Origin: an uncultured Deferribacteres bacterium
GTDB lineage: Bacteria > Zhuqueibacterota > Zhuqueibacteria > Zhuqueibacterales > Geothermadaptataceae
Assembly (NCBI GenBank): GCA_964014485.1
Contig: CAXHAT010000065.1
Coordinates: forward strand, 1-38,463
Reading direction: 5' to 3'
DNA length: 38,463 nucleotides
Below are positions 33,316 to 36,012 of the stretch, in pieces. Each line of letters begins with the position of its first letter. Position 1 is the stretch's first letter. The notes below the pieces were generated by a model. It searched no databases. It saw only the letters and a program-made list of their open reading frames with translations, and was not told the DNA's origin. The position numbers and the translations under genes were made by a program.

Positions 33316-33478
33316 CATGACGGCGCGTTTTCCCTCGAAGTGCGATTTTTTTTTCAATACTTTGTCGCCAACAAATGATTTCTTGCATGGCGATTCTCAA
33401 AAGTTTTGCCCGATCATACATTTTTTTGAGAGCGCCGCTTTTGGGTATTTCCGGTTCACCCGGACGAGGAGGTTTTAG

Positions 33479-33790
33479 ATGGAAATCGCTGATTGGCGAA
33501 AGAAAATCGATGACGCCGATTCCAGGCTGCTCGCGTTGTTGAACGAGCGCGCTTCGTACAGTTGCGCGATTGGCATGATCAAGCGCGAGCGCGGAATGGC
33601 ATTATATGACCCCAAACGCGAAAGGGAGATTATCGCACGCCTCAGCAAGAAGACGACCGGCCCGCTATCACCGCAAGCCGTACGTCGATTGTTCGAACGC
33701 ATCATCGACGAATCACGTCATGCGGAAAAGGAAGCCATGGTTGCAGAAGCGGCTTCTGAGAAAAAAGCAAACCAAGCTCAGGAGAAATAG
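33479..33790 (+). CDS. Monofunctional chorismate mutase (AroQ, CM_2)
   Basis: WRKKID..D..LLALLNERA, IG.IK, YDPKRE.EI, IIDESR; catalytic Arg/Lys/Glu retained. RBS GAGGAGG. Confidence 0.9.
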   Translation: MEIADWRKKIDDADSRLLALLNERASYSCAIGMIKRERGMALYDPKREREIIARLSKKTTGPLSPQAVRRLFERIIDESRHAEKEAMVAEAASEKKANQAQEK

Positions 33791-33791
33791 A

Positions 33792-34823
33792 ATGGTCGTG
33801 ATAATGAAAACAGGCGTCAGCGAAGAAGGCGTCCAGCGCGTTGTCGCGAAGCTAATCGACATGAACTTCAACGTGCATCGTTCAACGGGCGTGCAACGGA
33901 CGATTCTCGGCGCCATCGGCGACCAAACGGATTTTGACCCGCGAACGATTGAAGCGCTTGACGATGTTCGAGAAGTTGTTCGAATTACAAAGCCGTACAA
34001 GTTGGCAAGTCGAAATTTTAAGCGTGAAGATACCGTTGTCGAGGTTGGCGGCGGAAAAATTGGCGGCGAAGAAATCGTTATTATTGCCGGAGTCGGCGTT
34101 ATTGAAGCTGAAAATCAAATCAATACTGCGGCGGAAGCGGTTTCAAAGACTGGCGCCAGAATCTTATTGGGGAACGTCTACGCCAAATCTTTTTCTCCGC
34201 ACGATTTTCAAGGGCTTGGCGAAAAGGGCTGGCGTTATTTGTACGAAGCAGGCAAGAAATTTGGGCTAGGCGTTATGAGCGAAATCCGCAGCGTTCGAAA
34301 GGTTGCGGCCGCTGCGGAATACGTTGATATTTTTTTGGTCGGCGCACAGAATATACAAAATTTTGAACTTCTTGGCGAGATCGGAAAATTAAAAAAGCCC
34401 GTGGTGCTGAAACGCGGTTTTTCGGCGACTCTGGAAGAGACGCTCATCTCTGCGGAGCACATTATGTCGCAGGGAAACTATAATGTTATTCTCTGTGAAA
34501 GCGGCGTTCGGACGTTTGGATTGTACAAACGCAATACGCTGGATATTGCCGCCGTCTCAGCTTTTCAGCAACTCAGCCATTTGCCGGTTATTGTTGATCC
34601 GAGTCAATGCGCGAATGACAGCGCCGAGTTCGCTGCGCTTTGCAAGGCTGCGGTTGTCGCCGGATCGCACGGTTTGATTATTAAGGCGGGGGGTAATGCA
34701 AAAAATGTTGAGTCGAACGCCGCGTATTCTGTAGAACTGGATCAATTCGAGAAATTGACGTTTGAATGCTCGGCGTTGTCGCAAACGGCTTCTGATGTGC
34801 GGCAGGCTATATTTTCGAACTAA
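33792..34823 (+). CDS. DAHP synthase type Ibeta homolog with N-terminal ACT-like domain; active site degenerate (probable pseudoenzyme)
   Basis: Scaffold motifs intact (PYKLASR, FQGLG, NF.LL, PVVLKRG, RTF...RNTLD, HLPVIVDPS) but catalytic motifs substituted; see findings. ATG 33792 is 1 nt after the CM stop. Confidence 0.9.
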   Translation: MVVIMKTGVSEEGVQRVVAKLIDMNFNVHRSTGVQRTILGAIGDQTDFDPRTIEALDDVREVVRITKPYKLASRNFKREDTVVEVGGGKIGGEEIVIIAGVGVIEAENQINTAAEAVSKTGARILLGNVYAKSFSPHDFQGLGEKGWRYLYEAGKKFGLGVMSEIRSVRKVAAAAEYVDIFLVGAQNIQNFELLGEIGKLKKPVVLKRGFSATLEETLISAEHIMSQGNYNVILCESGVRTFGLYKRNTLDIAAVSAFQQLSHLPVIVDPSQCANDSAEFAALCKAAVVAGSHGLIIKAGGNAKNVESNAAYSVELDQFEKLTFECSALSQTASDVRQAIFSN

Positions 34824-36012
34824 GCGCCTCTACGCCGGGAAGGGCTTTGCCAGCCATAAATTCCAGCGAAGCGCCGCCGCCGGTTGAAACATGCGAAATT
34901 TTCTGCGCCAGGCCGGACTTTGCCAATGCCGCTACGGAATCCCCGCCGCCGACAACGCTGAAAGCGCCGTTCTCCGTTGCTTTGGCGACGGCTTCCGCAA
35001 TCGACAAAGTGCCGTGAGCAAAAGCCTCATTTTCAAAAACGCCCATGGGCCCGTTCCAGAAAATTGTCTTTGCTTTCGCAATAATCTCCCCATATTCTTC
35101 CACTGTTCGAGGCCCAATGTCAACGCCCATTTGATTGGCTGCGATGCTCATCGCGGGCGTTTCAGAGCCGCCCGGAGAGTCGATTTTCATCGTGACAATG
35201 TGATCGCGCGGCAACTCTAATTTGACGCCGGTTCTGTTGTTTTCGGAATTGACAAAATCCAGAAGTTCCTGCGCCGTGTCGTAGCGTTCTTTTTCAACCA
35301 GCGATTTCCCTACCGGAATGCCTCTGACTTTTAGAAAAGTATAAGTCATGCCGCCGCCGATCAAAATTGCGCTGACGCGGTTCAGCAGGTTTTGGATAAC
35401 GTCAATTTTGCCTGAAATTTTAGCGCCGCCCAAAATGGCGATAAACGGTCGTTCCGGGTATTGCAAAAGCTTGCCCAACGCCTTGAGTTCCGCCGTCATC
35501 AAGTAACCCGCCGCGCAATGTTCAATGAATTGCGTTACTCCGTGCGTGCTGGCATGTGCGCGATGCGCAGCGCCAAAAGCGTCATTCACATAAACTTCGC
35601 CCATCGTCGCCAATTGTTGCGCAAACGCGGAATCGTTGGTCGTTTCGCCTTCATGAAACCGGACGTTTTCCAGTAAGAGCACGTCGCCCGGCTCCAGAGA
35701 TTTTGCCAGTCGTTCAGCATCTTCTCCGATGCAGTCTGCAGCCATGAGCACGGCTTTATCTAATAGTTCGCCAAGACGCCTTGCAACGGGATCCAGGCTA
35801 AATTCCGGATTTCGTTTGCCTTTAGGGCGCCCTAAATGGGAAGCCAAAACGAGAGAACCGCCGGTTTCTAAAACATGGTTGATTGAAGGCAACGCAGCTC
35901 GGATGCGCGTATCGTCGACGATTTGCCCGTTTTTAAGCGGAACATTGAAATCGACTCGCATGAGTACGCGTTTTCCGGCCAAATCTAATTGATCTATGCT
36001 AGGTGCTGTCAT
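34807..36012 (-). CDS. pgk: Phosphoglycerate kinase
   Basis: [58 protein letters not shown] all intact. Confidence 0.98.

What the first reader, a model, noticed from the sequence alone, without database searches (positions are those of the whole stretch)
33479..34823. Apparently catalytically dead DAHP synthase with retained allosteric-site residues, encoded directly after chorismate mutase: candidate new regulatory pseudoenzyme
Seen: a 343-aa uninterrupted ORF that appears gap-free colinear with Thermotoga maritima DAH7PS by eye. All four metal ligands are replaced: C102G (IAGVGV for IAGPCS), H272Q (DPSQ), E298K and D309N. The PEP/E4P-binding residues are also replaced: R126L, the KPRT motif becomes AKSF (131-134), R186Q (GAQN for GARN) and R237S (CESG for CERG). 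K207 remains. Structural and interface motifs are conserved, as are ACT-domain H29, S31 and R36. Known: in T. maritima the ACT domain binds Tyr/Phe through His29/Ser31, and DAH7PS-CM complexes transmit allostery in other bacteria (e.g. Mycobacterium tuberculosis, with a type II DAH7PS). Inference: selective loss of the active site with a conserved fold suggests retention as an aromatic amino acid sensor or scaffold for the small CM, or as a regulatory subunit in hetero-oligomers with an active DAH7PS encoded elsewhere.
Basis: partly seen in the sequence, partly recalled or inferred. Interest (0 to 1): 0.85.

Follow-up and report, generated by a model that had tools for sequence, protein, structure and literature searches.

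The report
Dead DAHP synthase kept beside chorismate mutase
An uncultured marine bacterium keeps a full-length copy of the first enzyme of aromatic amino-acid synthesis whose active site is destroyed while its regulatory domain and fold are preserved, so it probably survives as a non-catalytic sensor or partner protein and would be mis-annotated as an enzyme.

Summary
Window 33792-34823 (+) encodes a 343-aa protein that aligns without gaps to Thermotoga maritima DAH7PS. All four metal ligands and all listed PEP/E4P residues except K207 are replaced. It follows the genome's only AroQ chorismate mutase (CM, 33479-33790) by one base.

- **Origin:** it is the vertical, syntenic ortholog of the CM + DAH7PS pair found in 29 of 40 relatives, all with intact catalytic residues. 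Its end branch is 3.38 changes per site against a median of 0.11.
- **Uniqueness:** no other protein with these substitutions was found. The nearest of 6784 scored homologs is 53% identical and intact.
- **Back-up enzyme:** the genome has an intact-looking type II DAH7PS.
- **Against plain decay:** there are no internal indels or stops (neutral simulation: 17-34 of 3000 runs stay open). The ferredoxin-like (FL) regulatory domain diverges at a near-normal rate (1.3x), the barrel at 2.75x. Conserved barrel positions far from the active site are kept 25/27, those near it 21/42.
- **Wider pattern:** 20 of 150 cluster representatives are similarly dead, each an isolated fast-evolving offshoot.

The function is inferred, not shown. 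The most likely role is a non-catalytic, aromatic-amino-acid-binding partner, with CM the leading candidate. Binding, expression and dN/dS could not be tested.

The parts
33324..33353 (+). Terminator-like hairpin plus T-run after the upstream TonB-dependent-receptor-like gene (ends 33315). It separates that gene from the CM operon.
   Evidence: consensus scan only; 4 terminator-like sites found against 3.9 expected in shuffles, so weak.
33479..33790 (+). AroQ-class chorismate mutase, 103 aa, intact. It is the only PF01817 gene found in the genome.
   Evidence: Pfam CM_2 E 3e-24. It keeps all 25 columns invariant among 45 homologs. Only one PF01817 match in G000. Nearest homologs are 62-71% identical, and the ones that carry a name are labelled candidate division KSB1.
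33780..33784 (+). Shine-Dalgarno-like AGGAG inside the end of CM, 7 nt before the ATG of the downstream gene. With the 1-nt spacer this suggests coupled translation.
   Evidence: Read from the sequence. The function is inferred.
33792..33992 (+). N-terminal ferredoxin-like (ACT-like) regulatory domain, residues 1-67, with H29 and S31 kept.
   Evidence: PF18152 E 6e-20 over residues 1-67. With the linker, 15 of 16 class-invariant columns are kept. Identity to family orthologs is 56% against 67% among those orthologs.
33993..34067 (+). Linker and N-terminal hairpin (residues 68-92, PYKLASR region), conserved.
   Evidence: 5 of 5 class-invariant columns kept.
34068..34823 (+). (beta/alpha)8 barrel of DAH7PS type (residues 93-343 plus stop). 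It lacks all four metal ligands and the PEP/E4P-binding Arg/Lys residues except K207.
   Evidence: PF00793 E 8e-48. Substitutions. 59 of 100 invariant columns kept. AF2 model mean pLDDT 92.8, with only the block 301-310 low at 58. Barrel rmsd 1.3 A to the A. pernix and P. furiosus enzymes.
34807..36012 (-). Convergent phosphoglycerate-kinase-like gene overlapping the 3' end by 17 nt. It is context only and is not conserved next to the pair in relatives.
   Evidence: The name pgk is my reading of the translation; no family scan was run on it.

Best explanation
The gene is the vertically inherited ortholog of the Tyr/Phe-regulated, ferredoxin-like-domain (FL) type Ibeta DAHP synthase. In this bacterial class that enzyme is always encoded just after a small chorismate mutase (CM). 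In this one lineage, probably candidate phylum KSB1, DAHP synthesis is left to a type II DAH7PS. The Ibeta copy has lost its metal site and its PEP/E4P site, so it can no longer make DAHP. It has nevertheless been kept as a translated, folded protein. The FL regulatory domain and linker evolve at about the normal rate. The barrel keeps its fold-determining residues, and only the active-site shell has been rebuilt into a less charged, more hydrophobic pocket. The most likely role (inferred, not shown) is non-catalytic. The protein would still bind an aromatic amino acid through its FL domains. It would act as a sensor, buffer or regulatory/scaffolding partner, and the co-translated sole CM is the leading candidate partner.
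For: Shown:
(1) Catalytic residues are replaced in a gap-free alignment. Residue roles come from PMC6362186 (passages).
(2) Orthology: the gene is placed inside its own family's clade (SH-aLRT 97), with CM directly upstream as in the relatives.
(3) Acceleration: the end branch is 3.38 against a median of 0.11. The CM control gives 0.58 against 0.2.
(4) An intact-looking type II DAH7PS is present at 626.7 bits over model positions 1-437. Chorismate synthase, prephenate dehydratase and trpA are also present.
(5) Evidence against neutral decay:
- No internal indel against family orthologs over residues 1-337.
- No stop, whereas random point mutation to 67% or 57% identity left 34 or 17 of 3000 runs open.
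- FL divergence is 1.34x and barrel divergence 2.75x that among family orthologs. Observed FL identity is 38/67 against 0.385 expected if FL decayed like the barrel, P=0.002.
- Conserved barrel columns within +-3 residues of catalytic positions are kept 21/42; those farther away 25/27, Fisher P=2e-4.
- FL plus linker invariants are kept 15/16 against 59/100 in the barrel, P=0.01.
(6) The coding signature is normal: GC1/2/3 = 0.58/0.38/0.52 and codon fit 0.104, within the 0.071-0.137 range of the window's genes; shifted frames give 0.019 and -0.036.
(7) The model has a confident DAH7PS fold.
(8) Pair linkage: 29 of 29 relatives with the canonical FL-DAH7PS have the small CM within 2.5 kb, and 0 of 11 without it have a small CM. 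In G000 the pair stayed together although it moved away from trpA.
Against: - No ortholog shares the dead state. The protein is a singleton among 6784 scored homologs, the 150 best of 7283 representative hits and 40 relatives. Long-term conservation of the dead form is therefore not shown.
- dN/dS cannot be measured, and no population variants were seen (depth 2-5, one study).
- No RNA evidence.
- The 14 of 50 changed invariant barrel columns far from the active site show general relaxation of the barrel.
- The ORF was flagged because it is open, so the stop-codon test suffers from ascertainment. The site-pattern tests do not.
- 'Near' and 'far' were defined along the sequence, not in 3D.
- The 19 other dead homologs are also isolated singletons, a pattern also expected for short-lived relics.
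- Co-occurrence of adjacent genes can reflect joint deletion, and the relatives are not independent.
- Ligand binding by H29/S31 is recalled from Cross et al. 2011, which is not held here.
Confidence: 0.55

Rival explanations
1. Relic in slow decay. Once the type II DAH7PS made the Ibeta enzyme dispensable, selection was lost. The gene is a not-yet-disrupted pseudogene that is carried along because it is co-transcribed with the essential CM.
For: It is a singleton with no conserved dead orthologs. The branch is about 30 times the median. 42 of 116 class-invariant columns are changed, against 0-2 in each relative. Relatives show that the Ibeta gene can be lost outright (11 of 40 lack the canonical copy). 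Other dead homologs are also isolated singletons. Ascertainment favours open ORFs.
Against: Decay would hit all sites alike, yet the FL domain diverges at a near-normal rate and conserved sites far from the active site are kept 25/27. There is no indel in about 1 kb and no stop (0.6-1.1% of neutral runs stay open). The codon signature is normal. From recall, bacterial pseudogenes have a deletion bias and collect indels at roughly a tenth of the substitution rate; that would make an indel-free neutral history very unlikely.
Confidence: 0.22
2. Neofunctionalised barrel. The rebuilt pocket (G102, L126, N128-V129-Y130-A131-K132-S133-F134, H137, L182, Q186, K207, S237, Q272-C273, K298, G300, N309) now binds or converts a different, less phosphorylated and more hydrophobic ligand. 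The FL domain still regulates it.
For: The changes concentrate in the active-site shell, as expected for a remodelled pocket rather than uniform drift. K207 is kept, and new K132, K298, C273 and H137 appear next to former ligand positions. The fold is intact.
Against: No conserved new motif can be defined from a single sequence. The loop 301-310 is the least confident part of the model. No family other than DAH7PS, KDO8PS and NeuB matches. The other dead homologs carry different residues at these positions, so there is no convergence on one new site.
Confidence: 0.12
3. Still a DAHP synthase, using migrated or alternative ligands and binding residues.
For: C273, D276, E307, H137 and K132 lie next to lost ligand positions. 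The pseudoenzyme review PMC10211241 (abstract start only) notes that catalytic residues can migrate.
Against: R126, R133, R186 and R237 are replaced by L, S, Q and S, and I saw no nearby basic replacement in the alignment. All four metal ligands are gone in a gap-free alignment. These columns are constant in 119 of 119 nearest homologs. The score falls below the equivalog cut-off of TIGR01361 (252 against 267.75).
Confidence: 0.03
4. Assembly or sequencing artefact, or a chimera from binning.
For: The source is a metagenome-assembled genome with 465 contigs. Read depth in the public runs is only 2-5.
Against: Contigs from three runs of one study carry identical sequence with no differences listed. 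These runs are not independent of the source. Errors cannot produce about 150 in-frame replacements without indels. The flanking CM is typical of the organism's lineage, and the gene groups with its own family.
Confidence: 0.02

Closest known systems
Thermotoga maritima-type DAH7PS (type Ibeta with N-terminal ferredoxin-like/ACT-like domain; PDB 1rzm, 1vr6, 3pg9; chimera 4grs)
   Same: Same two-domain architecture and length, with a gap-free alignment over 330 residues (E 8e-80, 41-44% identity). H29 and S31 of the regulatory domain are kept. Pfam PF18152 + PF00793.
   Different: All four metal ligands and all PEP/E4P residues except K207 are replaced, so the defining reaction is not expected. 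It evolves about 30 times faster than its orthologs.
CM-DAH7PS regulatory assemblies: covalent fusions (Geobacillus/Listeria/Bacillus N-terminal CM, PDB 5j6f, 3nvt; Prevotella/Porphyromonas C-terminal CM) and the non-covalent M. tuberculosis / C. glutamicum type II DAH7PS-CM complexes (PMC8408635, passages)
   Same: An AroQ CM and a DAH7PS-fold protein are encoded and probably made together. The pair is strictly co-inherited in the class. In the known systems the two proteins regulate each other.
   Different: Here the two are separate proteins, and the DAH7PS partner has an FL domain and is catalytically dead. No physical interaction is shown (one search gave no verdict). The CM scores below the cut-offs of the high-GC/Mtb-type CM models (TIGR01808 36.4 against 52.15; NF005894 28.3 against 73).
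HisZ-type regulatory pseudoenzymes (a catalytically dead paralog retained as the allosteric subunit of a biosynthetic enzyme). This comparison is recalled from general knowledge; nothing was read here beyond the listing of the review PMC10211241.
   Same: The proposed logic is the same: an enzyme fold keeps its ligand sensing or docking after losing catalysis in an amino-acid pathway.
   Different: HisZ is a conserved, widespread family with a demonstrated partner. This protein is a single-lineage ortholog conversion with no shown partner.
KDO8P synthase / NeuB (same PF00793/PF03102 superfamily)
   Same: The same barrel fold, with weak family matches (TIGR01362 74 bits, NeuB 23 bits).
   Different: The scores are far below the cut-offs (314 for TIGR01362). 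The PEP-binding residues those enzymes also need are missing.

Membership tests
Type Ibeta DAH7PS (3-deoxy-7-phosphoheptulonate synthase) | Sequence and fold membership: DAHP_synth_1 barrel | tested here: met
   PF00793 163 bits against cut-off 25.5. NF006421 342.1 against 335, only just over. TIGR01361 equivalog 252 against 267.75, below. Fold rmsd 1.3 A to solved barrels.
Type Ibeta DAH7PS (3-deoxy-7-phosphoheptulonate synthase) | Four divalent-metal ligands (Cys102, His272, Glu298, Asp309 in T. maritima numbering) | tested here: not met
   G, Q, K and N at these columns. Roles from PMC6362186.
Type Ibeta DAH7PS (3-deoxy-7-phosphoheptulonate synthase) | PEP and E4P binding residues (R126, K131, R133, T134, Q182, R186, K207, R237) | tested here: not met
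   Only K207 is kept, 1 of 8.
Type Ibeta DAH7PS (3-deoxy-7-phosphoheptulonate synthase) | Condensation of PEP and E4P to DAHP | not testable with these tools
   Needs an enzyme assay or complementation.
FL/ACT-regulated DAH7PS subgroup (T. maritima type) | N-terminal ferredoxin-like domain with the conserved His29/Ser31 | tested here: met
   PF18152 71 bits over residues 1-67. H29 and S31 are kept, as in 119 of 119 homologs. 10 of 11 FL invariant columns kept.
FL/ACT-regulated DAH7PS subgroup (T. maritima type) | Tyr/Phe binding and FL-domain dimerisation | not testable with these tools
   The role of H29/S31 is recalled from Cross et al. 2011, which is not held.
Pseudoenzyme (retained non-catalytic homolog) | Loss of catalytic residues in a recognisable enzyme fold | tested here: met
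Pseudoenzyme (retained non-catalytic homolog) | Maintained by purifying selection | tested here: inconclusive
   For: the domain-specific rate, near/far site pattern, absence of indels and stops, and codon signature. Not available: dN/dS and expression.
Pseudoenzyme (retained non-catalytic homolog) | Dead state conserved across species | tested here: not met
   No second sequence with these substitutions (119 nearest, all intact; 150 representatives) or (40 relatives).
DAH7PS-CM regulatory complex | Physical association of the two proteins | not testable with these tools
   Needs pull-down, SEC or a structure. The one co-fold job run here gave no verdict; see Tried and rejected.
AroQ chorismate mutase (upstream gene) | CM_2 domain with conserved active-site columns | tested here: met
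   PF01817 85 bits. All 25 invariant columns of 45 homologs are kept, including R7, R24, K35, R47, E48, S79 and E83. Their catalytic roles are recalled, not tested.

The most novel reading that the evidence does not exclude
Ferredoxin-like-domain DAH7PS proteins may repeatedly turn into non-catalytic, aromatic-amino-acid-sensing subunits once a second DAHP synthase is present. In this reading the dead barrel serves as a docking platform that puts the cell's only chorismate mutase (or another branch-point enzyme) under Tyr/Phe control. That would be a HisZ-like regulatory pseudoenzyme for the shikimate pathway, arising independently in many phyla (20 of the 150 best cluster representatives carry 4 or more replaced catalytic positions).
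Probability: 0.2. Interest if true: 0.75.

Novelty: new variant of a known kind. Interest (0 to 1): 0.5.

Why it matters
- **Annotation:** the protein passes the NCBIfam subfamily cut-off (342 against 335 bits) and Pfam. Pipelines will therefore call it a DAHP synthase, and metabolic reconstructions of this little-known phylum would credit the wrong gene. The working enzyme is the type II copy.
- **Evolution of allostery:** DAH7PS is a textbook case of modular allostery. A natural variant that keeps the regulatory module and the fold but discards catalysis would show what the module does by itself. It would also show whether CM regulation can outlive the enzyme that originally carried it.
- **Generality:** similar dead copies turn up as isolated fast-evolving offshoots in other lineages. 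That gives a set of natural experiments. No description of such proteins was found in the searched library.

Tried and rejected
- **Co-fold with a CM dimer**: score 0.00, no verdict. It is not evidence either way.
- **Expression**: no RNA holder listed.
- **Population variants for pN/pS**: contigs of three DNA runs of one study, identical to the window, depth 2-5, no differences listed. No test was possible.
- **dN/dS against relatives:** not attempted. The nearest orthologs are family-level (47-51% protein identity), so synonymous sites are saturated.
- **Dead orthologs:** The search for homologous proteins (only the 8000 candidates sharing most words were scored), the representative search and 40 relatives gave none.
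- **Context of another dead homolog, P0176**: its own genome was not returned; the best hit was 47% identical.
- **Relatives of dead homolog P0152 in metagenomes**: 18 loci returned, of which I examined the 10 that cover 334 or more of its residues. Eight are fully intact at the checked positions; L137 and L138 carry H272Q alone; L135 has P132S.
- **A hidden intact pair at the ancestral site:** downstream of trpA in G000 (contig C225, 466 nt to the contig end) there is no CM or DAH7PS. The 3% of the genome that is missing cannot be excluded.
- **Papers for the T. maritima residues:** Cross 2011 and Light & Anderson 2013 are not held. A search for Cys102/His272 gave 0 papers.
- **3D distance to the active site:** could not be computed because no coordinates were available to scripts. 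Sequence distance (+-3 residues) was used instead.
- **Earlier notes of this scan:** nothing on this locus.
Full report
**1. What is there.**
The finding's range holds two genes on the + strand. The first is a 103-aa AroQ chorismate mutase (CM) at 33479-33790 (PF01817, E 3e-24). One base after its stop comes a 343-aa ORF at 33792-34823, with AGGAG 7 nt before its ATG. The ORF has the ferredoxin-like regulatory domain (FL; PF18152, residues 1-67) followed by the DAHP_synth_1 barrel (PF00793, E 8e-48). It aligns to T. maritima DAH7PS (1rzm) residue for residue over 1-330 without a gap (E 8e-80). A terminator-like hairpin follows the upstream TonB-receptor-like gene. A convergent phosphoglycerate-kinase-like gene overlaps the 3' end by 17 nt.

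**2.
From the alignment the substitutions are C102G, R126L, K131A, P132K, R133S, T134F, R186Q, R237S, H272Q, E298K and D309N. K207, H29 and S31 are retained. Q182L and H300G are also changed. PMC6362186 (passages read) names the type Ibeta metal ligands, the PEP residues and the E4P residues; with an offset of 66 residues these are the same positions. The 119 nearest database homologs keep these residues with only isolated exceptions: one Q at 131, one N at 272, and T or S at 134. All 34 copies extracted from relatives keep them, with D at 298 in two deep paralogs. The equivalog model TIGR01361 is missed (252 against 267.75 bits), while the subfamily model NF006421 is only just passed (342.1 against 335).

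**3. Where it comes from.**
The window is contig C65 of an 8.4-Mb assembly in 465 contigs, 97% complete. The nearest CM homologs that carry a name are labelled candidate division KSB1. Three DNA runs of one marine-metagenome study hold the stretch.

- **Pair conservation.** Among 40 relatives of the same family, order and class, 29 have a canonical FL-DAH7PS. In all 29 a small CM lies upstream on the same contig: directly adjacent in 25, about 2.3 kb away in 3 (family f3), and on a split contig in G004.
- **Neighbours.** In the five relatives' loci I scanned, trpA precedes the pair in four. A tyrA-ACT gene or a Trp/Tyr-tRNA synthetase follows it in two.
- **Relocation in G000.** Here the flanks are different, and nothing resembling the pair lies after trpA in the 466 nt to that contig's end.
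- **Phylogeny.** An ML tree puts the G000 protein inside its own family's clade (SH-aLRT 97). Its end branch is 3.38 changes per column against a median of 0.11. The adjacent CM has 0.58 against a median of 0.2.
- **Identity.** Family orthologs are 70-98% identical to one another but only 47-51% identical to the G000 protein.

It is therefore a vertically inherited ortholog that changed very fast, not a foreign paralog.

**4. Redundancy.**
The genome has one other DAH7PS, a type II enzyme (PF01474, 626.7 bits, model positions 1-437, open frame 458 aa). No second PF00793 gene was found. Type II enzymes occur in 18 of the 41 genomes searched, including 6 of 9 family members whose Ibeta copy is intact where it was found. 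Redundancy is thus old, and it has usually not led to loss of catalysis. Chorismate synthase, prephenate dehydratase and trpA are present. The window's CM is the only PF01817 gene in the genome.

**5. Relic or retained protein?**
No close relative exists, so dN/dS is out of reach, and contigs from the public runs show no variants. Five other tests were possible.

- **(a) Indels.** There is no internal indel relative to family orthologs over residues 1-337.
- **(b) Stops.** I applied random point mutation to six family orthologs' genes until protein identity fell to a target value. At 0.80, 0.67 and 0.57 identity, 240, 34 and 17 of 3000 runs respectively had no stop. This test is weakened by ascertainment, because the ORF was noticed precisely for being open.
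- **(c) Domain contrast.** The FL domain is 56% identical to family orthologs, against 67% among those orthologs (divergence ratio 1.34). The barrel is 46% against 80% (ratio 2.75). If the FL domain had decayed like the barrel, 0.385 identity would be expected; 38/67 is observed, P=0.002. Of 116 columns invariant in 28 relatives, G000 changed 42, while each relative changes 0-2 in a leave-one-out count. FL plus linker keep 15/16 and the barrel 59/100 (P=0.01).
- **(d) Site pattern in the barrel.** Columns at least 90% conserved among 72 intact enzymes are kept 21/42 when within +-3 residues of a catalytic position and 25/27 elsewhere (Fisher P=2e-4). With the class-invariant set the figures are 23/50 near and 36/50 far (P=0.014). 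The 14 changed 'far' columns show that the barrel is relaxed beyond the first shell.
- **(e) Coding signature.** Codon-position GC and codon fit are typical of the window's genes.

The AF2 model is confident (mean pLDDT 92.8). Its only weak block is 301-310, the loop that used to carry E298 to D309. The model superposes on solved DAH7PS barrels at 1.3 A, though it was built with an alignment of mostly intact homologs. Taken together, uniform neutral decay is a poor fit. Selection appears to persist on the regulatory domain and the fold, and to have been lifted or redirected at the active site.

**6. What it probably does.**
Shown: the residues for DAHP synthesis are gone, the protein-level constraints are domain-specific, and the gene is tightly coupled to the only CM. 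Inferred: the protein still binds an aromatic amino acid through the FL domains and works non-catalytically. The role of H29/S31 in Tyr binding is recalled from Cross et al. 2011, which I could not read.

The partner is unknown. CM is the leading candidate for four reasons. The two genes have a 1-nt spacer. The small CM is found in 29 of 29 relatives with the canonical FL-DAH7PS and in 0 of 11 without it; two of those 11 have a CM domain inside a 380-404-aa ORF. The pair stayed together after relocation. And CM-DAH7PS assemblies with mutual regulation are known (PMC8408635, passages). The caveats are that adjacent genes can be deleted together, that the relatives are not independent, and that several of the 11 genomes are incomplete (67-100%).

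**7. A wider pattern, partly followed up.**
- Among the 150 best representatives of 50%-identity clusters, 27 differ at one or more of ten catalytic positions. Among the 81 of those 150 that are 320-360 aa long, 19 differ at four or more (20 counting G000's own protein).
- These proteins are 28-49% identical to each other and mostly closer to intact enzymes.
- Of nine whose 90%-identity clusters I looked up, seven have a single member, one has three and one has five. Names are attached to two: Sphaerochaeta and Candidatus Schekmanbacteria.
- They show the same pattern of kept FL and 'far' columns and lost 'near' columns.
- For one of them, P0152, I examined 10 of the 18 metagenome loci returned (the 10 covering 334 or more of its residues). 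The seven closest are intact and 57-62% identical to it, while 71-93% identical to each other. This is the same picture as in G000.

Catalytic death with acceleration therefore recurs. Each case is isolated, which fits either repeated repurposing or repeated, transient relics.

**8. Comparison and novelty.**
By fold and ancestry this is a T. maritima-type DAH7PS. By the defining catalytic features it is not one. It resembles known regulatory pseudoenzymes in logic only. Full-text searches for DAH7PS with pseudoenzyme (0 papers), for DAHP synthase with catalytically inactive, pseudoenzymes and bacteria (67 papers held at least 3 of the 4 terms; of the 12 listed, judging by title and abstract start, none concerns a dead DAHP synthase), and for 'DAH7PS-like' or 'DAHP synthase-like' (2 unrelated papers) found no description of such proteins. 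Subscription papers are not covered.

I rate it a new variant of a known kind. Interest is moderate: the case is clear and testable, but it rests on one uncultured genome, with no expression data and no demonstrated partner.

**9. Unpublished genomes.**
Genomes G016 and G023 are flagged unpublished. They are two of the relatives counted, and no statement depends on them alone.

Noticed in passing
G000 whole genome (no locus): No KDO8P synthase was found in the window's own 97%-complete genome. PF00793 and TIGR01362 match only the dead DAH7PS gene. Most relatives have a 280-330-aa hit of about 30% identity that looks like KDO8PS.
   Followed up: partly
P0144, P0146, P0151, P0152, P0176, P0181, P0183, P0191, P0196, P0198, P0201, P0213, P0216, P0236, P0243, P0247, P0252, P0255, P0259, P0268, P0271: About twenty other full-length DAH7PS-like proteins from other lineages have 4-9 of 10 catalytic positions replaced. 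Most keep His29/Ser31, and each is an isolated long branch.
   Followed up: partly
P0201 / P0277 / P0278 (cluster named Sphaerochaeta sp.): One dead DAH7PS-like protein shares a 90% cluster with a 630-aa member and with a 283-aa member named 'prephenate dehydratase domain-containing'. This suggests a fusion or adjacency of a dead DAH7PS with prephenate dehydratase.
   Followed up: no
L137:1293-2309, L138:1850-2866; also P0132: These variants have only the metal-ligand His272 replaced by Gln (P0132 also has R133S) while the other checked positions are intact. They may be intermediates or enzymes with altered metal use.
   Followed up: no
Relatives G005, G009, G012, G015, G017, G020, G021, G022, G040: No AroQ chorismate mutase (PF01817) was found in these 9 relatives, which also lack the canonical CM + DAH7PS pair. 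Five of them are 94-100% complete. How they make prephenate is open.
   Followed up: no
L042 (G001:C4:711091-715891), L043 (G010:C17:51377-56174) and similar hits in G003, G006, G008, G014, G016, G019, G027: A third, deep paralog group consists of open frames of 376-407 aa that are 31-34% identical to the query. In the two copies I extracted (L042, L043) the catalytic residues are intact, with Asp at position 298. The part outside the matched region was not characterised.
   Followed up: no
L039 (G012:C3:13678-18673), L040 (G011:C115:39260-44249): A divergent but catalytically intact FL-DAH7PS paralog (39% identity to the query) occurs in two relatives. In G012 it occurs without any small CM.
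   Followed up: partly
L147 (G000:C225:1-2740): In G000 the trpB-trpA genes end 466 nt from a contig end and are followed by a 100-aa hydrophobic ORF on the other strand. Relatives have the CM + DAH7PS pair at this position.
   Followed up: partly
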